A DNA stretch of 10,131 bases from a virus. A program made the translations under genes and the position numbers. The stretch lies in UHGV virus genome UHGV-0819168. One strand, 5' to 3'. Under the pieces are notes generated by a model, which did not search any database, was not told the DNA's origin, and worked only from the letters and a program-made list of their open reading frames with translations. Numbering within the stretch: position 1 is the first letter of the stretch; each line of letters begins with the position of its first letter. This document shows positions 1 to 9,548 of this stretch, in pieces.

Positions 1-127
1 GCGCTGACAGCTTTACCTGGTGATCTTCAGCATCTTCCCGGGCTATTGTGGTTCGCGCAGTGGCTGATTTTGCTGACATCACCACAGGGGGCAGACGGAC
101 CATTGAACCATGGCCTCCGGAACAAAT
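1..127. repeat. Direct repeat copy 1 (127 bp, identical to 2177-2303); left boundary cut by window start
   Basis: Base-for-base identity of 1-127 with 2177-2303; identity stops at 128 (ttt) versus 2304 (aag). Confidence 0.9.
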
Positions 128-797
128 TTTCAGGAAGGTACTGATCGATGTTTTCCGGGAAGCTCAGCAAACGGGCGATGTCCCGCCAGGCTTTAACCCT
201 GCAGAATCGGCAAAAAAACCGCAGGTGCGGATATCAAGACAGCGACTGACTTTTGATGAGTGGATGATGATTTATAACGCAGCGGAAAAGGATGGTTACT
301 TTTTACAGCGCGGTATGCTGCTGGCACTGATGACAGGCCAGCGCCTTTCAGATATTTGCAAAATGCAATTTTCGGATATCCGGGATGGTTATCTTCATGT
401 CGAACAGCAAAAAACAGGAACCCGGATTGCCATCCCTCTGGCTCTGCGTTGCGATAAATTAAATCTCACCCTAGATGATGTGGTGTCATCCTGCCGCGAT
501 TGCGTTCTTAGTCCGTGGCTATTGCACCACCATCACGCGAAAGGGACAGCTAAGCGCGGCGGGATGGTTAAGCCAGCAACATTAACCGTTGCATTTAAAA
601 AAGCCCGGGATTCTGTGGATTACAACTGGCGTGCTAATGGCACCCCACCCTCTTTCCATGAGCAGAGATCTTTATCAGAGCGATTGTTCAGAGAGCAGGG
701 GGTTGATACCAAAATTTTGCTGGGCCATTCGAATCAAAAAATGACCGATATTTACAACGACGCACGCGGTAAGGAATGGAAAAAACTGGTCATTTGA
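48..797 (+). CDS. int: Tyrosine recombinase / phage integrase, lambda Int-like catalytic domain; probably 5'-truncated (in-frame TGA at 21-23, homology to Int begins just after the direct repeat)
   Basis: Translation matches lambda Int C-terminal half as recalled: RLTFDEW..IYNAAE, LLALMTGQRLSDICKMQFSDIRDGYLHVEQQKTGTRIAIP (lambda LAVVTGQRVGDLCEMKWSDIVDGYLYVEQSKTGVKIAIP), PPSFHEQRSLSERLF, LLGHSNQKMTDIYNDARGKEWKKL. Catalytic Arg, His-x-x-Arg and Tyr positions present. Stop TGA at 795-797. Confidence 0.85.
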   Translation: MVRAVADFADITTGGRRTIEPWPPEQIFRKVLIDVFREAQQTGDVPPGFNPAESAKKPQVRISRQRLTFDEWMMIYNAAEKDGYFLQRGMLLALMTGQRLSDICKMQFSDIRDGYLHVEQQKTGTRIAIPLALRCDKLNLTLDDVVSSCRDCVLSPWLLHHHHAKGTAKRGGMVKPATLTVAFKKARDSVDYNWRANGTPPSFHEQRSLSERLFREQGVDTKILLGHSNQKMTDIYNDARGKEWKKLVI

Positions 798-837: not shown

Positions 838-1079
838 GAAAATTAAAAACGATATCCTGCGGAGAACATAAACACCCACGGATCCAGTCGTACCGAGTCT
901 TTTACGGTAGTAACACCAGATTTGTACTTAGCCGTGGTATCGATATCCATGTACCACACTGACATGTTTTAAAAAATGCAATAAGACATTGTATCTGAAA
1001 GAAAAAACAGGATTTGAGGCGCTTTTTTATACCGTTTTTCCGTGTTTTTAACTGCCTGATTTTATTGAAATCTTTTTTA

Positions 1080-1089
1080 GTTTTGCAGA
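1080..1089 (+). promoter_or_regulatory. Fourth copy of GTTTTGCAGA; candidate distal arm-type site (P-arm-like)
   Basis: Exact repeat of the 10-mer ~250 bp from the tandem triplet, within the same AT-rich non-coding tract. Confidence 0.35.
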
Positions 1090-1152
1090 AAGGATTTTTT
1101 GCTCGATCGCTTTAATTTTATACATTCCTGATAACGGAAATTTTTTTGCCCG

Positions 1153-1182
1153 TTGACAGTTTTTGTTCTCCGGGGCTATATT
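1153..1182 (+). promoter_or_regulatory. Sigma70-type promoter (TTGACA, 18-bp spacer, TATATT) reading toward the rha-like gene
   Basis: Consensus -35 TTGACA at 1153-1158 and near-consensus -10 TATATT at 1177-1182, preceded by an A/T-rich UP-like tract (1136-1147). Confidence 0.6.
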
Positions 1183-1190
1183 CCTCACAC

Positions 1191-1264
1191 AACCGCAAAA
1201 TCGGTTGTCGGGATTGGCGTCTCGGATAACATCACAACGCATAGCCGCGTTTGCGGTTTTTTTT
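1191..1264 (+). terminator. Terminator-like or attenuator structure in the leader: 9-bp perfect long-range stem (1191-1199 with 1250-1258) followed by T8; possible small RNA of ~75 nt
   Basis: aaccgcaaa at 1191-1199 is the exact reverse complement of tttgcggtt at 1250-1258; a run of eight T follows (1257-1264); it begins at the predicted transcription start of the 1153 promoter. Confidence 0.35.
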
Positions 1265-1424
1265 GCGTTAAGCATTGCCACATTCGCATTATGGTGGGGC
1301 GTGCAGGGGCGGAGAAATCCGCGCCGGGTTTTGTGATGACCGGTTACGCCAACCCTGTACGTCTCACCACCTCCCTGATTGGCGTCAGAGGTGGTGATCA
1401 TCCAATTAATTGGAGTCATCACAT

Positions 1425-1982
1425 ATGAATACAGCTATAACTTTTTCTAACGAGTCACCAAAAGTCTTTTTCAAAGATGGTCGCCTGGTTACCACCTCTC
1501 AAGCTGTTGCCGACTACTTCGATAAACAACATAAACACGTTTTAGCTAAGATTGACACACTCGACTGCTCTCCCGAATTTACATCAGCCAACTTTTCGGC
1601 CGATGTTCAGACTGTCGAAATTGGCAACGGCGCAGAACGTGAATCACGATGCTACCTGATCACAAAAGACGGCTTCATGTTCCTCGTAATGGGATTTACT
1701 GGCAAAAAAGCAGCCAGACTAAAAGAAGCTTACATTGAAAAATTTAACGCAATGGAAGAAGAACTCCACAAACGTCCTCCTGCAGCACAAAACTCCCCCG
1801 CCCCAAATAATGGATGCGCATTACTGATCCACTTCGATAAACACGGTCAGGTCGAGTTCACAGAAAAAGTCCCCGCCGATGCGATGGTATGCACGCTGGA
1901 ACGGTTTAAATTTTATCTGGAGCAACATGGGTGGATCGTTGCCCGTAAAGAACAATTGGTGGAAAGGTTGATGCGGTTTTAA
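1425..1982 (+). CDS. Rha-family phage regulatory protein (antirepressor-like); ORF track 1410-1982, ATG 1425 with GGAG at 1412-1415 is the likelier start
   Basis: N-terminal Rha signature: VTTSQAVADYFDKQHKHVLAKIDTL and YLITKDGFMFLVMGFTGKKAARLKEAYIEKFNAMEEEL. Followed by an intrinsic terminator. Confidence 0.8.
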   Translation: MNTAITFSNESPKVFFKDGRLVTTSQAVADYFDKQHKHVLAKIDTLDCSPEFTSANFSADVQTVEIGNGAERESRCYLITKDGFMFLVMGFTGKKAARLKEAYIEKFNAMEEELHKRPPAAQNSPAPNNGCALLIHFDKHGQVEFTEKVPADAMVCTLERFKFYLEQHGWIVARKEQLVERLMRF

Positions 1983-1993
1983 TGAATGCAAAA

Positions 1994-2022
1994 CCCCGGA
2001 TGATCACCGGGGTTAATTTTAT
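1994..2022 (+). terminator. Rho-independent terminator after the rha-like gene
   Basis: GC stem ccccgg (1994-1999) / ccgggg (2007-2012) with loop atgatca, followed by T-rich ttaatttt. Confidence 0.6.
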
Positions 2023-2176
2023 CGAGCGTGATTGCCGCTAATCGCCATCGCTCTGATTGAGCGTAAATCATTCAGGTTATTCAGTTCTTCCTTCTGCTCT
2101 CGCTGACGTCAATAAATCCCATCATTGCGATCAACCTCATCCTTAACCATTGATGCGAGCAGTTCTTCCAGTTTCT

Positions 2177-2303
2177 GCGCTGACAGCTTTACCTGGTGAT
2201 CTTCAGCATCTTCCCGGGCTATTGTGGTTCGCGCAGTGGCTGATTTTGCTGACATCACCACAGGGGGCAGACGGACCATTGAACCATGGCCTCCGGAACA
2301 AAT
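2177..2303. repeat. Direct repeat copy 2 (127 bp, identical to 1-127)
   Basis: Perfect identity to window positions 1-127 at a constant offset of 2176; flanks differ on the right side. Confidence 0.9.
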
Positions 2304-2343
2304 AAGGGCAAAAATAACAACCACTATCGAAAGCTCACAAACT

Positions 2344-2477
2344 AACCGCAGCACGTTCCTGCATACGACGTGTCTGCGGCATAATCCCAATGATTACTCC
2401 CTGACAGGATTTGCAGGCCACTCAATATCAGGTGCAGTTGATGTATCAACACGATTCAACAATACCCGATATTTATT
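2344..2477. repeat. Direct repeat A (~134 bp, ~90% identical to 3394-3526): 3' end of a tfa gene plus a 34-bp imperfect palindrome (2346-2379)
   Basis: Alignment by eye with 3394-3526; contains the last ~28 codons of the minus-strand tfa-like ORF and the palindrome ccgcagcacgt...acgtgtctgcgg. Confidence 0.85.
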
Positions 2478-2663
2478 CCATGCCTCCAGCAACGATCTTT
2501 CTTCCTCCGTTGCGATTTCCAGATCTACAGCATCCTGCAGTGGCGCAATATACTCACTGAATTCCTGGATGTAGAACTGTGTGGTGACGGTCTTCCAGCC
2601 ATTCGGCTCCTGCTGTATCGAAGCATACCAGGCTATTTCAATATCGCTATGCTGCGGCAGCAT
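2394..2663 (-). CDS. tfa: Tail fibre assembly protein, lambda Tfa-like C-terminal domain (89 aa; short, possibly chimeric or remnant)
   Basis: C-terminal 55 aa match lambda Tfa as recalled: [54 protein letters not shown] versus [56 protein letters not shown]-terminal 35 aa unrelated. Confidence 0.6.
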
Positions 2664-2690
2664 TTAACCCCTTGTAATTCATCGCCATAA

Positions 2691-2719
2691 TTGATTTAAT
2701 TCACAAATAAAACTATAAC
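2691..2719 (+). promoter_or_regulatory. Candidate sigma70 promoter for the methyltransferase gene (TTGATT, 17-bp spacer, TATAAC)
   Basis: -35-like TTGATT at 2691-2696 and -10-like TATAAC at 2714-2719. Its position implies a very short leader and use of ATG 2732 rather than ATG 2720. Confidence 0.35.
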
Positions 2720-3388
2720 ATGGTGAAATCAATGAAAAAAAACACAGATGATGGGGCTAAAATTTACACACCACTTACCCTAAAGCTTTATGACTGGTGG
2801 GTTTTGGGAGTATCAAATCGGCTTGCATGGGGATGTCCTACAAAGGAACACCTTCTTCCACACTTTCTGGAACATGTAGGTAACAACCATCTGGATATTG
2901 GTGTTGGAACTGGGTTTTACCTTACTCACGTACCTGAGAGTAGTCTGATATCTTTAATGGATTTGAACGAAGCTAGCCTGAACGCGGCATCTACAAGGGC
3001 TGGGGAATCAAAAATTAAACATAAAATTAGCCATGATGTTTTTGAACCTTATCCCGCGGCGTTACATGGTCAATTTGATTCCATTTCCATGTTTTACCTT
3101 CTTCACTGCCTGCCTGGAAATATATCTACAAAAAGCTGTGTAATACGCAATGCGGCGCAGGCCTTAACTGACGATGGAACTCTATACGGAGCCACAATTC
3201 TTGGCGATGGAGTTGTGCACAATAGCTTCGGTCAAAAACTGATGCGCATTTACAATCAGAAAGGCATCTTTTCAAACACAAAAGATTCCGAAGAAGGCTT
3301 AACACATATACTCTCAGAGCATTTCGAGAATGTTAAAACCAAGGTTCAAGGTACTGTAGTAATGTTTTCCGCTTCAGGGAAAAAATAG
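2720..3388 (+). CDS. Class I SAM-dependent methyltransferase (Rossmann fold, ~220 aa, substrate unknown); AT-rich moron; alternative start ATG 2732
   Basis: Motif I hh-D-h-G-x-G-x-G (HLDIGVGTGFY), post-I acidic residue (SLMDLNE), motif II (FDSISMFYLLHCLP), motif III (LTDDGTLYGATIL) in canonical order. No DPPY/NPPY or C5-cytosine MTase motifs. Markedly lower GC than flanking genes (about 37% in a hand-counted 60-nt line at 3001-3060). Confidence 0.75.
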   Translation: MVKSMKKNTDDGAKIYTPLTLKLYDWWVLGVSNRLAWGCPTKEHLLPHFLEHVGNNHLDIGVGTGFYLTHVPESSLISLMDLNEASLNAASTRAGESKIKHKISHDVFEPYPAALHGQFDSISMFYLLHCLPGNISTKSCVIRNAAQALTDDGTLYGATILGDGVVHNSFGQKLMRIYNQKGIFSNTKDSEEGLTHILSEHFENVKTKVQGTVVMFSASGKK

Positions 3389-3393
3389 CATCC

Positions 3394-3526
3394 AACCGCA
3401 GCACGTTCTTGCTTAAGACGTGCTGCGGCATAATCCCAATGATTACTCCCTGACAGGGTTCGTAGGCCACTCAATATCAGGTGCAGTTGATGTATCAACA
3501 CGGTTCAGTAACACCCGATACTTTTT
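3394..3526. repeat. Direct repeat B (~133 bp, ~90% identical to 2344-2477): perfect 11-bp-stem palindrome (3396-3428) plus a 27-codon tfa 3' fragment ending in a TAG where Trp is expected
   Basis: ccgcagcacgt (3396-3406) / acgtgctgcgg (3418-3428) perfect inverted repeat. Minus-strand translation of 3446-3526 gives [27 protein letters not shown], preceded by TAG at the Trp position. Confidence 0.85.
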
Positions 3527-3574
3527 CTAGGCTTCCACCACCAGCACGACAAGATGCCGCATACAGTGAACCAG

Positions 3575-3769
3575 TCAGTCCAGTTTTCAGACAACCAGTG
3601 CGTCACCTTTTTGAAGGCGCTTTAAAGCACGTTTTAATCCAGGTCGGCCTGTCCTTGTTCCGCTTAATTTATCTTCAAATATTTGTTCATATCCTGCACA
3701 AACAAGAGCGTTTCGTTGCAGATCTGTATTCTGGTCATTTGTTGATACCCTTACATAGCCAATCAGCAC
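3575..3769 (-). pseudogene. pin: pin/gin-family serine DNA invertase, 5' remnant only (~60 codons; TGG to TGA nonsense then loss of the remaining ~120 codons)
   Basis: From GTG 3769 (RBS gggag upstream): MLIGYVRVSTNDQNTDLQRNALVCAGYEQIFEDKLSGTRTGRPGLKRALKRLQKGDALVV-stop-KLD-stop. This matches the Pin/Gin/Hin/Cin N-terminus including the catalytic Ser in VRVSTNDQ, and stops where Pin continues WKLDRLGRS. Confidence 0.8.
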
Positions 3770-3823
3770 GCTGAATCTCCCGTCCAAAAGCACAAATCAT
3801 GCCATGCAGGCCAGAAACCGCCA

Positions 3824-3849
3824 TTATCTAAAACCTCGGTTTACAGGAA
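3824..3849 (+). other. Gin/Pin-family 26-bp inversion crossover site (pix/gix-like, right-type orientation)
   Basis: ttatctaaaacctcggtttacaggaa; reverse complement ttcctgtaaaccgaggttttagataa differs at one position from the gix sequence as recalled. Lies ~50 bp upstream of the pin start. Confidence 0.7.
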
Positions 3850-3894
3850 ACGGTAAACAAGGCTGGTAACGCCGTTCAGCGTTCCGGCGATAAA

Positions 3895-4863
3895 ATGACC
3901 GGAGAACTGAAAATTGGCACGGTGAATGCGCTGCGAATTTTCAATGATGCCTTCGGTCTTATTTTCCGTCGTTCAGAAGATTTTCTTCATTTCATTCCGA
4001 CGGCTGAAGGACAAGGCGAAAACGGTGATATCGGCCCATTAAGGCCATTCGCTATAAATCTGAGAACAGGTGCTATATCTGTCAGCCACGGGGCCAAAAT
4101 TGATGGTGGGCTGGCGCTTGGTACAGATAACGCACTGGGCGGTAATTCCATTACTCTCGGAGATAACGACACTGGTATTAAACAGGGCGGCGACGGTGTC
4201 CTTTTATTCTATTCAAATGGACAACTGGCATTTGGGCTTCAACCCGCATCTGCTGATTTTTATAAGCGGGTTGCATATATTCATCAGGGAATAATTCCTG
4301 ATGGAAGTGGCGCATTTGCAGACCAGTTGAATAATGCCACCGCGCCTTTTGTTCAGACGCAGTTTGCCTGGAATCCCACTCCTGGTGGTCATTACGTGCC
4401 GATAGTTAAGGGCTTGTCCATTCGCAATGGACAGGGCTATCCCGGCGCGGTCAGCTTTGGGTATTTACTGACAGAACAGTATGGATTTCCGGTTCCATGT
4501 ATTCATATGCGTGGCGATGGCGGTAATGATGCTTTATGGCAGTTTAACCCGAACGATAAATCCTTTATTTCACCGGGTGCTCTTATTGCGGGTGGCGTCC
4601 GTTATAACACCGATGGAAATATATTTGGTGGGTGCTGGGGGTCAAACTTAAATGATTACCTGAATAGTTCTTTTATCAGAAATGTGCGTCTGGGAGGCAG
4701 ACGTTCTGACACATTATATCGCGGAGGACTTTGCGAACCAGGTAATGGTCATGTGACAACAGGATTGCAAATTATTGGTGAGGTTGATGGAGATGACTGG
4801 ATGGTGTCACGACCACTACAAAAATACATTTCTGGTAACTGGTATAACGTTGAACAGGCATAG
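3895..4863 (+). CDS. Silent alternative side-tail-fibre C-terminal cassette; open frame runs from the crossover site (3832) with no own initiation context, expressed only after inversion
   Basis: Frame open from 3832 through the 3824-3849 site in the same phase as stf through the 6905-6930 site. Shares LGGNSITLGDNDTGIKQGGDG and C-terminal RPLQKYISGNWYNV with the expressed stf C-terminus. Confidence 0.65.
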   Translation: MTGELKIGTVNALRIFNDAFGLIFRRSEDFLHFIPTAEGQGENGDIGPLRPFAINLRTGAISVSHGAKIDGGLALGTDNALGGNSITLGDNDTGIKQGGDGVLLFYSNGQLAFGLQPASADFYKRVAYIHQGIIPDGSGAFADQLNNATAPFVQTQFAWNPTPGGHYVPIVKGLSIRNGQGYPGAVSFGYLLTEQYGFPVPCIHMRGDGGNDALWQFNPNDKSFISPGALIAGGVRYNTDGNIFGGCWGSNLNDYLNSSFIRNVRLGGRRSDTLYRGGLCEPGNGHVTTGLQIIGEVDGDDWMVSRPLQKYISGNWYNVEQA

Positions 4864-4878
4864 CCATCAGGAGAATAT

Positions 4879-5406
4879 ATGCAACATCTGAAAAATATTA
4901 CCGCCGGAAACCCCAAAACCATTGAGCAGTATCAGCTTACGAAAAAAGCTGGCGTTATCTGGCTATATACAGAAGACGGTAAAAACTGGTATGACGAATT
5001 AAAAAACTTTCAGGATGATACTTTAAAAATAGCTTATGACCAGAAGGGGATTATTCGTTGTATTGAGAAAGACGTATCAACACTTAACCCTGACGGGTTA
5101 AGTGTTGTTGAGTTACCGAATATAACAGCCAACCGTCGCGCCGATATCTCGGGAAACTGGAAGTTTCTGGATGGTAAAGTAGTAAAGCGGGAATATACAA
5201 AACAGGAACTGCAACAGCAGGCAGAGTTACAAAAAGCCGCTTTGCTTTCCGAAGCGGAGTCTGTGATTCAACCGCTGGAACGTGCTGTCAGACTGAATAT
5301 GGCAACTGATGAGGAACGCACACGACTGGAATCATGGGAACGCTACAGCGTTATGGTCAGCCGTGTGGATACTGCAAAGCCTGAATGGCCACAGAAACCA
5401 GAATAA
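4879..5406 (+). CDS. tfa: Tail fibre assembly protein (second copy, partner of the silent fibre cassette)
   Basis: [38 protein letters not shown].. is 60-70% identical by eye to the 5437-5970 Tfa; C-terminus ..[31 protein letters not shown] is the Tfa C-terminal pattern. AGGAG RBS at 4867-4871. Confidence 0.85.
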
Positions 5407-5416
5407 CAACAAATTA

Positions 5417-5436
5417 AGGCCCGTACGGGCCTTTTC
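5417..5436. terminator. Bidirectional intrinsic terminator between the convergent tfa genes
   Basis: Perfect palindrome ggcccgtacgggcc (5417-5430) flanked by A-rich sequence on one side and T-rich (ttttctt) on the other. Confidence 0.6.
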
Positions 5437-5970
5437 TTATTCTGGTGGTTCCGGGAATGTTACAGGAAGAACCGAGGTATCAGTTGTCTCAACCTGTTGC
5501 ACGTATCGCATCCAGTTCATCAGTTGCTGTCTGTCTGAATCAGTGATAATCCCCAAAGTAAGCTGTGTTTGCCAGAACTGCGTTTTTTCTCTGGCCTGCT
5601 GTAATAATATTTTTTTCTGGTTTTCCGTCTGTAGGCGCAACTCTTCTTCGGTATATACACGTTTAATGACTGCGCCATCTTTAAACATCCATTTACCTGA
5701 GTCGTCAGCACGCCGGTTGGCGGTAATATCAGGAATCTCAACGACGCTATAACCTTCAGGGTTAAGTGTGGAGGCATCTTTGGTTATGGCAACAATAATA
5801 TTATTTTCATCGTAAACAATCTTTATGGTGTCTGGCTGAAAGTTTTTCACTTCCTCATACCAGTTTTTTCCGTCCTCAGAGTAAAGCCAGATAACTCCGT
5901 GTTTCTTTGTTAACTCATACTGTTCCAGTGTTTTAGCATTACCCGCTTTTATGTTCTTTAAGTGCATCAT
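5437..5970 (-). CDS. tfa: Tail fibre assembly protein (currently expressed orientation), translationally coupled to stf
   Basis: [58 protein letters not shown].. matches the E. coli prophage TfaE/TfaR-type family. ATG lies 1 nt after the stf stop. Confidence 0.9.
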
Positions 5971-5971
5971 A

Positions 5972-8797
5972 TTAAACGCTCGCTACATTATACCAGGTGC
6001 CATTTATATACTTTTGAACGGGTCTGTAATAAACGCCCGCTATATTATCGGCAGAGTTAGACCCTGTATCCTGAACATTAATACCAGACAATACATGACC
6101 TGAAGGGCACTGGAAATTCCATGTTTGCCAGTTGTTCACTCCATAATATTGCTGTGAACCAAGTCGAACATCTTTCACATAACGGGAATCAAAGTTACCG
6201 TAATCCGAGGGGTTAACACGCCCTGTAATATTTATGGTTTTATTACTTTGAATGCTTCCGGAGACAAAGCGCATAACATGGACGTTATTAGCATAAACAT
6301 CCAGATTACCATCGCCATTTTGTTTAAAGCCCGTGTCATTATCACCCAATACAATCGAATTACCGCCAAGAGCACTGGATGTTCCGATACCCAGTGCACC
6401 ATTCAGTTGACCACCAGATAACGGCAGTGCACCAACATCTCCTGCTGAAGGCTTTCTGGTGGTGGTGTAAAATTCGGACCAGTCGGCTTCAAAACCATAA
6501 CCATCACGGGCTGAACGATAAAAAATACCGCCATTTTTATAATTAATCCGAAACTGAGCTGCAGGACAACTTCCTTCTCCCATATAAAAATGAATAATTA
6601 ACGTTGATGCACCACTAATAGTTGCGTTATAGGCTCCGCTACTCCAGTTCCATCCAACTGCTTTATCATTCGCAACGGTGCTTCCTGTTTTCCCTAAGGC
6701 AAACGCACCAACATGACTTGCTTTTAATGTGATATCGGAGGAACCATCAAAAGCCACATTGCTTATTTTCCTGGCAGTTTTTAATTTTGCAGCTGTAGAA
6801 GCATTGCCGGATAGTTCACCAGAAAGGCCACCGCTGAATGTTTGTCGATTAGTCCAGGTATTCGCTGTACTGAGTAACGGTATTTTCTCCCCGCTTGTGC
6901 CGAGTTCTCGTAAACCGAGGTATTCGATAACGGCGGCAACGGTCGATTTCGCAAGAATATCCCGCCCAACTTTTGTCAGGGTTGCCAGACTGGCAACATC
7001 ATTCCCCGTAAAATACGGAAACCTGTCTGCCGCAGTAGCAAGCCCGGCCAGCGCCGTCAGGGTGGCATCTTTCGGTTGCTTACCCGCAAGCGCGCTAGTC
7101 ATGGTGGTCGCAAAATTCGGGTCGTTGCCCAACGCCGCAGCCAGCTCGTTCAGCGTATTCAGTGCGTCAGGCGACGAGTCCACGAGGGCAGCGATCGCAG
7201 CCATAACATAAGCCGTGCTTGCGATTTGGGTATTATTCGTTCCCTGTCGCGCAGTTGGTGTTGTTGGCGTTCCGGTCAGTGCAGGACTATTTAAGGGCGC
7301 TTTCTTGTTCGTTTCACCCATTACCGCCTTAACCGCTTTTGGCGTTGCCGCCAGTGACTCGGAAGTGCTGTTGGTCGCACTGCTGAGCTGTACTATCCCC
7401 TTTTTCGTCGTGCTCGCATCCTCAAGCGCCACGGCGGATGCAATATCCTCTGCCCGTTTTGCCGCTGTCTCGGCGCGCGTTGCCGCGGATTCCGCCGTAC
7501 TTTTGCTCTGAGCTGCCGCCGTCGCACTGCCAGCTGCCTCTGTCGCCTTCGTGGATGCCGTCGTGGCGCTGCCCTTTGCTGCTGACGCCTGTCTGGTCGC
7601 CTCATCTTTTGAAGCAGACGCAGATGATGCCGATGACGCCGCTGAACTGGCTGACGATGCGGCTGCCGCCTTAGAGGAAGCAGCATTGTCTGCTGAAGTC
7701 TTTGCATTTGTTTCAGAGGTTTTTGCTGCAGAAGCAGACCTCGCTGCTGCAGTGGCTTGCTCAGTGGCTTTGCCAGCCTTCGTTGTGGCTGTTGAAGCGG
7801 ATGATGCGGCGCTTTCTGCCGATTTTCCGGCGGCGGTGGCACTGGCTGAGGCCTGCCCGGCACTTGTTGACGCGGCACTGGCAGATAATGCAGCCGCTGT
7901 TTTTGAACCTGCCGCAGCTGAGGCGCTCTGTCCCGCTGCTGTTTCAGAAGACTTAGCGTTCGTCTCGGACGTTTTTGCCGCCTTCGCGGAATTTCCTGCC
8001 GCCGTTGCCGAGGAAGCTGCACTACTGGCACTTGATGATGCATTCGTTTCTGAAGATTTCGCTGCCTCTTTTGAGGCCGCCGCACCCCGTGCCGAGGTGG
8101 CAGCTTCTGACGCCTTCGTGGTCGCTGTGGATGCAGAAGTGGCTGCCGATTTTTGTGATGCTGCGGCATTCGTTTCTGACGTTTTCGCGGCACTGGCGCT
8201 GGTAGCTGCCGCGCTTTTTGATGACTCTGCAGCAGCAGCACTTTTTGCTGCTTCACGGGCCTTTGTCGATGCCGTTCCTGCGCTGGAAGACGCTGACTGA
8301 GCCGACGACGCGGCCTGTCCGGCTGACGTGCTGGCGGCACGTGATGAGGCTGCAGCATCGGTTGCATGAGTTGCCGCCTCGCTGGCTGATGCACTGGCAT
8401 CGCTGGCTGATTTTTTCGCGGCTGCCGTATTCTGTGCAACCGCGGAGGCGTTACGTGACACCTCTTCTACCATCTGCTCAAAGCGGCGCAGTGCCTCCGG
8501 TCGGACATCATCCTCCGTCATGGCACCGAGAAAATCATTCAGCGTACCTGGTCTGGAACCTTCATAGACGGTAATGGTCCCGGCATGTGAAGGCGGAAAA
8601 CCTTCAACCAGCAGGGTGACGCTGTACTGACCATGCTCAACATCCATGCTGTAACGTCCGGCTTCATCCGGATTTTCAGAGGCCACCGTGTTCACCACCA
8701 CCGTGCTGCTGGTTCGTCTGGCCTTCAGCACAATGGTGCAGTTCTGTACTGGTTTTCCTGTGCCATCTTTAAGCACGCCAGAAATTTTTACTGTCAT
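5972..8797 (-). CDS. stf: Side tail fibre protein, lambda Stf-like (941 aa): conserved N-terminal domain, long Ala/Ser/Thr-rich repeat region, C-terminal ~310 aa encoded inside the invertible segment
   Basis: N-terminus [74 protein letters not shown] is near-identical to lambda Stf as recalled; repeated AAKTSETNA units; VIEYLG junction at the crossover site. Confidence 0.9.
6905..6930 (+). other. Gin/Pin-family 26-bp inversion crossover site inside stf (left-type orientation)
   Basis: ttctcgtaaaccgaggtattcgataa resembles gixL as recalled (TTCCTGTAAACCGAGGTTTTGGATAA), is inverted relative to the 3824-3849 site, and encodes VIEYLGLRE in the stf frame. Confidence 0.65.
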
Positions 8798-8811
8798 ACT
8801 TTTCCACCAAT

Positions 8812-8844
8812 AAAAAAAGCCCGCAGCAGTGACGCCACGGGCTT
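8812..8844 (-). terminator. Rho-independent terminator downstream of lom, 15 nt upstream of the stf start
   Basis: Minus-strand stem aagcccg / cgggctt followed by a T7 run (plus-strand aaaaaaa at 8812-8818). Confidence 0.6.
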
Positions 8845-8948
8845 CAGGACGGTGTAACTTTACGTTTCCTCAAACGCAGTTCACCCCATAAGGTGGATGA
8901 ACCTGCGTATCATAACAATATTTACAGAAGATAAATCGGCGTCTGTTG

Positions 8949-9548
8949 TCAGAAACGGTATCCGATACCAACAATAAATGCATCCGTTCGCCAGTCGCCA
9001 CTACCGGAACCTTCATAAGCAAGGTCAATGGTCACGGATTCGGTCGGGTTAAACTGCACGCCAGCCCCCCACGCCAGAGACGTGTTGCTGTGGCGACCGT
9101 CATCACTTCCGGTCAGCACATCGTGCGTTTTCCCCTTGTTGTCAGTTACGCGGAGATAATCCCCGGAGAAAGTCGACACACGGCTGTAAGCCACACCCGC
9201 CATCGCATACGCGCTGAACCATTCATTCACGCGTACAGACGGCCCCGCCATCACGCTGAACCAGCGGTTACGCACGGAATCTTCATGCCAGCGGGTATCG
9301 CTGTAGCGCGTTTTTTGCTCATCCTCAGCATTGGCATAACTGAAGGACGTAATCAGCCCCAGCGCGTCCGTAAACTCATAACGGTATTTCACGTTAATCC
9401 CGTTCAGATCATCACTACCGGGAACGTTCGTCGAGGCATGGAGATACCCCGCGCTCAGCGTGGACTGATGTTCTGCTGCACTCGCTGGCGTAGCAGCGGC
9501 GACCTGCCAGACTACTGCGGACAAAATAACAGCACATAATTTACGCAT
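8949..9548 (-). CDS. lom: Lom/Ail/OmpX-family outer membrane beta-barrel protein (lambda Lom homologue)
   Basis: Signal peptide MRKLCAVILSAVVWQVAAATPASA; motifs GINVKYRYEFTD, SVMAGPSV, SAYAMAGVAYSR, AYEGSGSGDWRTDAFIVGIGYRF match lambda Lom as recalled. RBS gagagg upstream. Confidence 0.9.
   Translation of the reverse strand: MRKLCAVILSAVVWQVAAATPASAAEHQSTLSAGYLHASTNVPGSDDLNGINVKYRYEFTDALGLITSFSYANAEDEQKTRYSDTRWHEDSVRNRWFSVMAGPSVRVNEWFSAYAMAGVAYSRVSTFSGDYLRVTDNKGKTHDVLTGSDDGRHSNTSLAWGAGVQFNPTESVTIDLAYEGSGSGDWRTDAFIVGIGYRF

What the first reader, a model, noticed from the sequence alone, without database searches (positions are those of the whole stretch)
3824..6930. Complete Gin/Pin-type invertible tail-fibre switch: two fibre C-termini and two tfa genes between inverted 26-bp sites
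The sites ttatctaaaacctcggtttacaggaa (3824-3849) and ttctcgtaaaccgaggtattcgataa (6905-6930) are inverted copies matching the gix/pix crossover pattern. The one inside stf is in frame (VIEYLGLRE), and the other is in the same codon phase ahead of an ORF with no own start. Inversion would therefore swap the last ~310 aa of Stf for a different ~340-aa C-terminus (..VIEYLGLQETVNKAG..) and bring the second tfa into play. The two cassettes share only short motifs (LGGNSIxLGDNDTGxKQxGDG; RPxQKYIxGxWYNV), so they probably bind different receptors.
Basis: partly seen in the sequence, partly recalled or inferred. Interest (0 to 1): 0.6.

Follow-up and report, generated by a model that had tools for sequence, protein, structure and literature searches.

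The report
Orphan invertible phage tail-fibre switch
This is a real Mu-type DNA-inversion switch that swaps the tip of a prophage tail fibre, but its own invertase gene is dead, so another prophage must flip it, and this same locus (prophage Phi4 of E. coli ST131) was described in 2014.

Summary
Two 26-bp sites (3824-3849, 6905-6930) are inverted copies, identical at 22 of 26 positions. The first matches phage Mu gixR at 25 of 26. Simulated inversion at the central dinucleotide fuses the constant 629 aa of Stf in frame to a second C-terminus: 339 aa in place of 312 aa, giving 968 aa instead of 941 aa. Each cassette has its own tfa chaperone gene, and a bidirectional terminator hairpin lies between the two tfa genes.

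"Complete" is wrong. The adjacent invertase gene is a remnant of about 83 of roughly 193 codons, with three in-frame stops, fused to a tfa 3' fragment. The 5' part that carries the recombinational enhancer in Mu and P1 is retained (70 of 72 bases identical to Mu gin).

The segment still flips in nature. Over a 5.3-kb query, 138 complete E. coli genomes have the window's orientation and 233 the opposite one, with 100%-identical examples of each. EC958 is collinear with the simulated inverted window.

Forde et al. 2014 (PMC4134206) described this locus as ST131 prophage Phi4: the same sites, a 3106-bp segment, a truncated invertase, and inversion in trans proposed via the Phi1 invertase. Verdict: real, ordinary, already known. 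Low interest.

The parts
6917..8797 (-). Constant 5' part of stf (codons 1 to about 627, ending ..VIEYL). It has a lambda-type 'prophage tail fibre N-terminal' domain followed by an Ala/Ser-rich shaft.
   Evidence: ORF 5972-8797 of 941 aa. Pfam PF08400 at 5e-70. The constant part is 629 aa up to ..EYLGL.
6905..6930 (-). 26-bp gix-type crossover site inside stf: TTATCGAATACC TC GGTTTACGAGAA, in frame as VIEYLGLRE.
   Evidence: It equals the left half of 'Phi4_5prime' plus the right half of 'Phi4_3prime' in Forde et al. Table 3, as expected for the opposite orientation.
5972..6916 (-). Cassette A, the currently expressed variable C-terminus of Stf (312 aa after ..LGL).
   Evidence: 82% identical over 308 aa to the C-terminus of a P2-type gpH. 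85% over 93 aa to Mu S' (PDB 8ju3).
5437..5970 (-). tfa (177 aa), the chaperone paired with cassette A. It lies 1 nt downstream of the stf stop on the same strand, so it is probably co-transcribed with stf.
   Evidence: Caudo_TAP 6e-32. 69% identical to Mu U' over the full length.
5416..5433 (.). GC-rich hairpin AAGGCCCGTACGGGCCTT between the two convergent tfa genes. It reads as a terminator-like site on both strands.
   Evidence: 7 pairs, 5 of them G-C, T-rich tail on the + strand. This is a consensus match only.
4879..5406 (+). tfa (175 aa), the chaperone paired with cassette B. Silent in this orientation.
   Evidence: Caudo_TAP 9e-35. 78% identical to Mu U over the full length. PDB 5yvq_B at 2.8e-86.
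3838..4863 (+). Cassette B, the silent alternative C-terminus (339 aa after ..LGL). It has no start of its own at its 5' edge.
   Evidence: About 97% nt identity to Mu-like Yersinia phages vB_YpM_3 and vB_YpM_23. Weak similarity to Mu S.
3824..3849 (+). 26-bp gix-type crossover site next to the invertase remnant: TTATCTAAAACC TC GGTTTACAGGAA.
   Evidence: 25 of 26 identical to Mu gixR in NC_000929..
3836..6918 (.). Invertible segment, measured between the central dinucleotides. It is 3107 bp from the outer end of one site to the outer end of the other (3824-6930).
   Evidence: The simulated inversion is collinear with EC958. Forde et al. give a 3106-bp segment.
3521..3769 (-). Serine-invertase (gin-type) pseudogene. 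GTG start at 3769, catalytic-domain N-terminus VLIGYVRVSTNDQ.., stops at 3587-3589 (TGG to TGA) and at two further codons. Everything beyond about codon 83 is deleted.
   Evidence: Pfam Resolvase N-terminal domain only, profile positions 2-69 of 145. 92.5% nt identity to the 5' end of Mu gin. RefSeq pseudogene.
3680..3751 (-). Stretch equivalent to the recombinational enhancer (Fis-dependent in Mu, P1 and Hin) inside the 5' end of the invertase gene.
   Evidence: It aligns with the enhancer annotated in P1 cin, nt 19-90 of the CDS. 70 of 72 identical to Mu gin and to the intact EC958 Phi1 invertase gene, and 55 of 72 to P1. Function is inferred.
3443..3520 (-). 3' remnant of a tfa gene (..[25 protein letters not shown]) fused in frame to the invertase remnant. 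It marks the deletion that removed the invertase 3' half.
   Evidence: It is a direct repeat (89%) of the tfa remnant end at 2374-2491.

Best explanation
The window holds the tail-fibre end of a lambdoid prophage integrated at ompW next to the trp operon, known as Phi4 in E. coli ST131. The region 3824-6930 is a homologue of the phage Mu G segment.

Layout. A constant stf 5' part (lambda Stf-type N-terminus) ends in a 26-bp gix-type site. Between that site and a second, inverted site lie two alternative stf 3' cassettes. Each is followed by its own tfa chaperone gene. The two halves are convergent around a bidirectional hairpin.

Mechanism. A Gin-family serine invertase, with the host factor Fis bound to an enhancer in cis, would pair the two sites, cut at the central TC/GA dinucleotide and rotate the strands. 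That replaces cassette A plus the U'-like tfa with cassette B plus the U-like tfa, and so changes the receptor-binding tip of the fibre.

What is special here. The locus is an orphan. Its own invertase gene is reduced to a stop-ridden 5' fragment. Both crossover sites and the enhancer-bearing 5' stretch are kept, so flipping must be catalysed in trans by a paralogous invertase from another resident element. In EC958 the likely source is the P2-like prophage Phi1, whose invertase is 85% identical to Mu Gin and whose sites are nearly identical.

Shown: sites, frames, cassette and tfa homologies, the invertase pseudogene, and both orientations in otherwise identical DNA.

Inferred: that the retained enhancer works, which enzyme acts in trans, that the two tips bind different receptors, and whether the strain the window came from carries a suitable invertase.
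For: Site statistics and frame fusion.

Homology to Mu:
- site 25 of 26 identical to gixR, invertase 5' end 92.5% nt identical
- tfa genes 78% and 69% identical to Mu U and U', with identical lengths
- the same gene order as the Mu G segment

Invertase decay: and RefSeq pseudogene calls (8, 15, 20, 44).

Enhancer equivalent retained.

Inversion in nature:
- the alternative junction is present at 100% identity in many complete genomes and so is the native junction
- with a 5.3-kb query that includes the remnant and its flanks, 138 genomes have the native orientation and 233 the inverted one
- the simulated inverted window aligns with EC958 in one HSP, 936-9173, 99.94%, no gaps, while the native window aligns in one HSP with JJ1886
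- strain EC15 is annotated with a tail-fibre CDS of 2907 nt, which matches the predicted 968-aa fusion

Crossover position: half-site mismatches stay with the flanks or move with the segment as a central crossover predicts (window sites against Forde Table 3).

Literature:
- Forde et al. 2014 saw both Phi4 orientations in PacBio reads of a single culture, noted the truncated invertase and proposed trans action by Phi1
- PCR-confirmed switching in an invertase-less lambdoid prophage of ST131 'Bone' isolates
- PinQ of prophage Qin inverts the e14 P segment in trans

Candidate enzyme: an intact Phi1-type invertase 3' half is present at 100% identity in many ST131 genomes of either orientation.
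Against: - The genome the window came from is not among the complete genomes searched (best match 93% coverage). Whether it carries any intact Gin-family invertase is unknown, so the switch could be frozen in this strain.
- Some genomes with the locus (4/0, H105, Ecol_732) did not appear among the 100%-identity hits for the Phi1 invertase (the list was cut at 60 rows). Phi1 may therefore not be the only, or the necessary, enzyme.
- The enhancer stretch differs from Mu at two positions. One of them removes a loose Fis-consensus match that Mu and Phi1 have. The effect was not tested.
- In ST131 clade C genomes the prophage is degraded: the tape-measure gene is truncated and lom is split by ISEc12. 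Host-range switching may therefore have no phenotype there.
Confidence: 0.9

Rival explanations
1. Frozen relic in this particular genome. The sites and cassettes are intact, but the source strain has no compatible invertase, so the segment is locked in the window's orientation and only cassette A is ever made.
For: The cis invertase is dead. The source genome could not be identified. Some genomes with the locus seem to lack the Phi1-type invertase (truncated list).
Against: Across complete genomes, the same 5.3 kb at 100% identity occurs in both orientations, 138 against 233. Both orientations coexist within single cultures of EC958. Gin-family invertase genes are common in E. coli prophages: 628 genomes match the Phi1-type 3' half alone.
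Confidence: 0.15
2. The orientation polymorphism arises from RecA-dependent homologous recombination between the short inverted repeats, not from site-specific recombination.
For: The repeats belong to a 32-36-nt imperfect inverted repeat.
Against: The longest perfect identity is only about 12 nt (ACCTCGGTTTAC), well below what RecA uses efficiently (established knowledge). The exchange maps to that core around the central dinucleotide. About half of the reads in a single culture were flipped at the sister locus Phi1, a frequency typical of invertases. The sites are 25 of 26 identical to Mu gixR.
Confidence: 0.03
3. The two orientations in databases are assembly artefacts caused by inverted repeats.
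For: Short-read assemblers can mis-orient segments that are flanked by inverted repeats.
Against: The repeats are only about 30 nt, shorter than reads. The collection holds complete genomes, most of them built from long reads. PacBio read-level evidence and PCR with restriction digests exist.
Confidence: 0.01

Closest known systems
Prophage Phi4 tail-fibre inversion region of E. coli ST131 EC958 (Forde et al. 2014, PLoS One 9:e104400, PMC4134206)
   Same: It is the same locus. The 26-bp sites are identical once the half-site exchange expected for the opposite orientation is allowed for. The segment is 3106 bp. The invertase is truncated. The chromosomal position is next to trpA and ompW'. The window, once inverted by computer, is 99.94% identical to EC958 over 8.2 kb.
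   Different: The window is in the JJ1886-type orientation. Its lom gene is intact, whereas ISEc12 splits lom in EC958 and JJ1886. Its left flank differs: an integrase fragment from a neighbouring prophage.
Phage Mu G segment with Gin, gix and sis (genes S/U and S'/U')
   Same: The gene order matches: constant fibre part, site, Sv-U, U'-S'v, site, invertase. The site is 25 of 26 identical to gixR. The invertase 5' end is 92.5% nt identical. The tfa genes have identical lengths and are 78% and 69% identical. The enhancer-equivalent stretch is 70 of 72 identical.
   Different: The constant part is a lambda Stf-type side tail fibre of a lambdoid prophage, not Mu S. The cassettes are mosaic: cassette A is P2 gpH-like with a Mu S' block, and cassette B is only weakly like Mu S. 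The invertase gene is a pseudogene.
e14 P segment with Pin, and trans inversion by PinQ of prophage Qin (Kirigo et al. 2025, NAR, PMC12529663)
   Same: A cryptic-prophage tail-fibre inversion segment is flipped by a serine invertase encoded in a different prophage.
   Different: e14 keeps its own pin gene. The segment there is 1797 bp. In that work the proposed role of the flipped product, StfE2, is to block phage T2 adsorption. Nothing of that kind was tested for this locus.
P1 and P7 C segment with Cin and cix, and the P2-like prophage Phi1 inversion region of EC958
   Same: Both use a Gin-family invertase with an enhancer in the first ~90 nt of its gene (P1 annotation). The silent cassette of Phi1 is 96.6% nt identical to cassette A. 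The Phi1 sites differ from those here by 1-2 bases.
   Different: Those systems encode an intact invertase (Phi1: 199 aa, 85% identical to Gin). Here it is missing.

Membership tests
Gin/Cin/Pin/Hin serine-invertase DNA inversion systems | Two 26-bp crossover sites in inverted orientation, each an imperfect dyad of 12-bp half-sites around a 2-bp core, with the same core dinucleotide in both | tested here: met
   3824-3849 and 6905-6930. 22 of 26 positions identical, core TC/GA in both, half-site dyad matches of 7 of 12 and 9 of 12. No chance hits in 200 shuffles. 25 of 26 identical to Mu gixR.
Gin/Cin/Pin/Hin serine-invertase DNA inversion systems | An intact serine invertase gene of about 185-200 aa (catalytic domain plus C-terminal helix-turn-helix) adjacent to the segment | tested here: not met
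   Only about 83 codons remain, with three in-frame stops, fused to a tfa 3' remnant. Pfam matches positions 2-69 of 145 of the Resolvase domain only. RefSeq calls it a pseudogene.
Gin/Cin/Pin/Hin serine-invertase DNA inversion systems | A recombinational enhancer in cis (Fis-binding), located in the 5' end of the invertase gene | tested here: inconclusive
   The equivalent stretch, 3680-3751, is retained and is 70 of 72 identical to Mu gin and 55 of 72 to the annotated P1 enhancer. Fis binding and function were not tested. One substitution removes a loose Fis-consensus match.
Gin/Cin/Pin/Hin serine-invertase DNA inversion systems | The segment is actually found in both orientations, with exchange inside the sites | tested here: met
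   138 complete genomes in the native orientation and 233 in the inverted one over 5.3 kb. EC958 is collinear with the simulated inversion, with breakpoints within 3818-3844 and 6910-6936. Read-level evidence in Forde et al. 2014.
Gin/Cin/Pin/Hin serine-invertase DNA inversion systems | Dependence on host Fis and on negative supercoiling | not testable with these tools
   This needs in vitro or genetic assays.
Mu G-segment-type tail-fibre host-range switch | A constant 5' fibre part fused in frame, through the site, to one of two alternative 3' cassettes, each with its own downstream tfa chaperone gene | tested here: met
   Both fusions are open: 941 aa and 968 aa. The two tfa genes match Caudo_TAP and are 78% and 69% identical to Mu U and U'.
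Mu G-segment-type tail-fibre host-range switch | The two fibre tips confer different host ranges | not tested
   There is only indirect support. The cassettes share 31-60% identity over two short stretches and resemble different fibres.

The most novel reading that the evidence does not exclude
The orphan switch may be kept by selection rather than being on its way to decay. Both sites and the enhancer-bearing stretch are unchanged, and the segment keeps flipping, although its own invertase is dead and the prophage is degraded in ST131 clade C. It might therefore have been taken over by the host: the invertase of another prophage would toggle which Stf/Tfa pair a cryptic prophage produces. The host could gain from that, for instance by blocking adsorption of incoming phages, as reported for PinQ and StfE2 in K-12. 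Alternatively, the fibres could be lent to co-resident phages.
Probability: 0.08. Interest if true: 0.55.

Novelty: already known. Interest (0 to 1): 0.12.

Why it matters
Invertible tail-fibre segments are a textbook way for temperate phages to alternate host range. This example adds nothing new in kind, and the locus itself has been published.

Its modest value is as a clear case of cross-talk between prophages. A switch that has lost its own recombinase is still flipped at high frequency across the pandemic ST131 lineage, presumably by the invertase of another resident prophage.

For genome annotation it is a reminder of three things:
- the 322-aa 'hypothetical protein' at 3895-4863 is really a silent fibre cassette
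- assemblies of one clone can legitimately differ in this 3.1-kb orientation
- calling such a switch 'complete' requires checking the recombinase gene

Tried and rejected
- **Further or secondary crossover sites.** I looked for these, for example the AACCGAGGTATCAG match at 5470-5483 found. With up to 3 mismatches to the site pattern, only the two sites are found. By eye, the 5470 match agrees at 13 of 26 positions (one half-site). I treated it as chance.
- **Identifying the source genome.** The aim was to check it for a trans-acting invertase. No complete E. coli genome contains the whole window (best 93% coverage), and the left-end junction is found nowhere.
- **Cross-tabulating orientation against presence of the Phi1 invertase.** The search tool lists at most 60 rows, so only anecdotal overlaps could be read. 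No statistic was possible.
- **Scanning the retained enhancer for Fis consensus sites.** The consensus is too loose to be decisive.
- **The first simulated inversion.** It had an off-by-one cut and gave a false frameshift. It was corrected.
- **Pfam on cassette B.** No family was found.
- **Phage database.** No sequenced phage carries the whole segment; best coverage was 71%.


Full report
**1. The observation**

They are 3824-3849 (TTATCTAAAACCTCGGTTTACAGGAA) and, read on the minus strand, 6905-6930 (TTATCGAATACCTCGGTTTACGAGAA). As inverted copies they agree at 22 of 26 positions and share the central dinucleotide TC/GA. They are the core of a 32-nt inverted repeat, 3818-3849 / 6905-6936. That repeat is one of four inverted repeats found in the whole window at seed 12 and minimum length 18. 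A degenerate pattern built from the two sites, with up to three mismatches allowed, finds only these two places. It finds nothing in 200 dinucleotide-preserving shuffles.

The frame argument also holds. The minus-strand ORF 5972-8797 is a 941-aa Stf with a lambda-type 'prophage tail fibre N-terminal' domain. Inverting 3836-6918 by computer gives an open 968-aa protein. The constant 629 residues (..VIEYLGL) continue as QETVNKAG.. for 339 residues, in place of the present 312. My first attempt, had an off-by-one cut and should be ignored.

Two tfa genes lie between the cassettes: 4879-5406 (+) and 5437-5970 (-). Both match Pfam Caudo_TAP. A GC-rich hairpin at 5416-5433 reads as a terminator on both strands.

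**2. What it is**

The region is a homologue of the phage Mu G segment, grafted onto a lambdoid side tail fibre.
- The site next to the invertase is 25 of 26 identical to Mu gixR as it stands in NC_000929.
- The adjacent invertase 5' region is 92.5% identical in DNA to Mu gin.
- The 175-aa and 177-aa tfa genes have the same lengths as Mu U and U' and are 78% and 69% identical to them (PDB 5yvq_B).
- The gene order mirrors that of Mu.

The cassettes themselves are mosaic. Cassette A, expressed here, is 82% identical over 308 aa to the C-terminus of a P2-type gpH. It also carries a block that is 85% identical to Mu S'. Cassette B, silent here, is about 97% identical in DNA to Mu-like phages isolated on Yersinia pestis and only weakly resembles Mu S.

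**3. The switch is not complete**

The invertase gene on the minus strand starts at GTG 3769 and encodes the catalytic N-terminus VLIGYVRVSTNDQ... A TGG-to-TGA change ends it after 60 codons, at 3587-3589. Two further in-frame stops follow. At about codon 83 the sequence runs into the last 25 codons of a tfa gene (..[25 protein letters not shown]). Pfam sees only positions 2-69 of the 145-position Resolvase domain. RefSeq marks the gene 'incomplete; missing C-terminus' in every related genome I looked at. The rest of the catalytic domain and the DNA-binding domain are gone.

What survives may matter. In P1 the recombinational enhancer is annotated at nt 19-90 of cin. The aligned stretch here, 3680-3751, is 70 of 72 identical to Mu gin and to the intact invertase gene of EC958 prophage Phi1. 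So both crossover sites and the probable cis enhancer are present, and only the enzyme is missing. That the enhancer works is an inference. A loose scan for Fis consensus sites was not informative.

**4. Does it still flip?**

Yes, in the population.
- The window belongs to a prophage inserted at ompW beside the trp operon in E. coli ST131 and its relatives.
- A 600-nt junction built for the alternative orientation occurs at 100% identity in many complete genomes, and so does the native junction.
- With a 5.3-kb query (2700-8000) that includes the invertase remnant and both flanks, 138 genomes hold the window's orientation and 233 the inverted one. Both sets include 100%-identical examples.
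- The computer-inverted window aligns with EC958 in one ungapped HSP (936-9173, 99.94%). The native window aligns in one HSP with JJ1886.
- Strain EC15 is annotated with a tail-fibre CDS of 2907 nt, which matches the predicted 968-aa fusion.
- The half-site mismatches behave as a central crossover predicts. The left halves stay with the flanks and the right halves travel with the segment (against Table 3).

Identical DNA in two orientations, with breakpoints inside a 12-nt identical core, argues against ancient divergence, RecA-type recombination and assembly error.

**5. What is already published**

Forde et al. 2014 (PMC4134206) describe exactly this locus as prophage Phi4 of EC958.
- They list the same 26-bp sites and a 3106-bp invertible segment.
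- PacBio contigs showed both orientations within one culture.
- They name the Phi1 invertase as the candidate because the Phi1 and Phi4 sites are nearly identical.

I confirmed that Phi1 encodes an intact 199-aa invertase that is 85% identical to Mu Gin. The Phi1 silent cassette is 96.6% identical to cassette A. The 3' half of the Phi1 invertase gene is present at 100% identity in many ST131 genomes of either orientation.

A preprint on ST131 wound isolates confirmed switching by PCR in a lambdoid prophage that lacks an invertase. Kirigo et al. 2025 showed that PinQ of prophage Qin inverts the e14 P segment in trans. Trans action between prophages therefore has direct precedent.

**6. Open points**

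- The strain the window came from is not in the complete-genome collection. I cannot say whether it carries a usable invertase, so a locked switch in that strain remains possible (about 15%).
- A few genomes with the locus did not show up among the 100%-identity hits to the Phi1 invertase. The list was truncated, so no conclusion follows.
- In ST131 clade C the prophage is degraded: the tape-measure gene is truncated and lom is split by ISEc12. The switch may therefore have no effect on any virion there. In the window lom is intact, and in the related strain 300033 the tail genes are annotated as intact.
- That the two tips bind different receptors is plausible from their different relatives but was not tested.

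**7. Verdict**

The locus is a member of the Mu Gin/gix type of tail-fibre inversion system that has lost its own recombinase. It has already been described in the literature. Novelty: already known. Interest: low.

The most novel reading still open is that the orphan switch is maintained for a host benefit, such as Stf-mediated exclusion of other phages under the control of another prophage's invertase. I put that at about 8%.

Noticed in passing
window 1-127 and 2177-2303: There is a perfect 127-nt direct repeat. The copy at the very start of the window joins a piece of a DUF4376 pseudogene to the middle of a lambda-type integrase gene, at a 6-9-nt microhomology (ACAAAT). No complete E. coli genome has this junction, and strain EC15 has a full-length integrase there. 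127 is the usual largest k-mer of de Bruijn assemblers (from general knowledge), so this may be a contig-end artefact. It could also be a real 2176-bp duplication or a circle junction.
   Followed up: partly
window 2344-2491 and 3394-3540, flanking 2720-3388: A class I SAM-dependent methyltransferase gene (222 aa, + strand) is bracketed by direct repeats of about 148 nt (89% identical). The repeats are the 3' ends of tfa genes. It looks like a moron cassette inserted or duplicated between two tail-fibre-assembly remnants. The right-hand remnant is the one fused to the invertase pseudogene.
   Followed up: partly
window 48-797, 1410-1982 and 2019-2663: The window holds, in order, the C-terminal part of a lambda-type integrase, an ash/Rha regulator pair, then a DUF4376 pseudogene and an 89-aa tfa remnant. 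By comparison with EC15, a second lambdoid prophage sits in tandem at the ompW attachment site next to this one.
   Followed up: partly
window 8949-9548: The lom gene (Ail/Lom family, 199 aa) is intact here. In ST131 JJ1886 and EC958 it is split by an IS21-family element, ISEc12. The window therefore comes from a less degraded version of the prophage.
   Followed up: no
window 7697-8191 (stf, about aa 200-370): The Stf shaft is extremely rich in Ala and Ser, with imperfect 33-nt repeat units at irregular spacing. This also produces long spurious ORFs in other frames (for example 7393-8439 and 7551-8300).
   Followed up: no
window 3895-4863: RefSeq annotates the silent cassette as a free-standing 322-aa 'hypothetical protein' (WP_001513292.1), starting from an internal ATG. 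In the opposite orientation, the other cassette is annotated as a truncated 'tail fiber protein' pseudogene. The annotation therefore changes with the state of the switch.
   Followed up: yes
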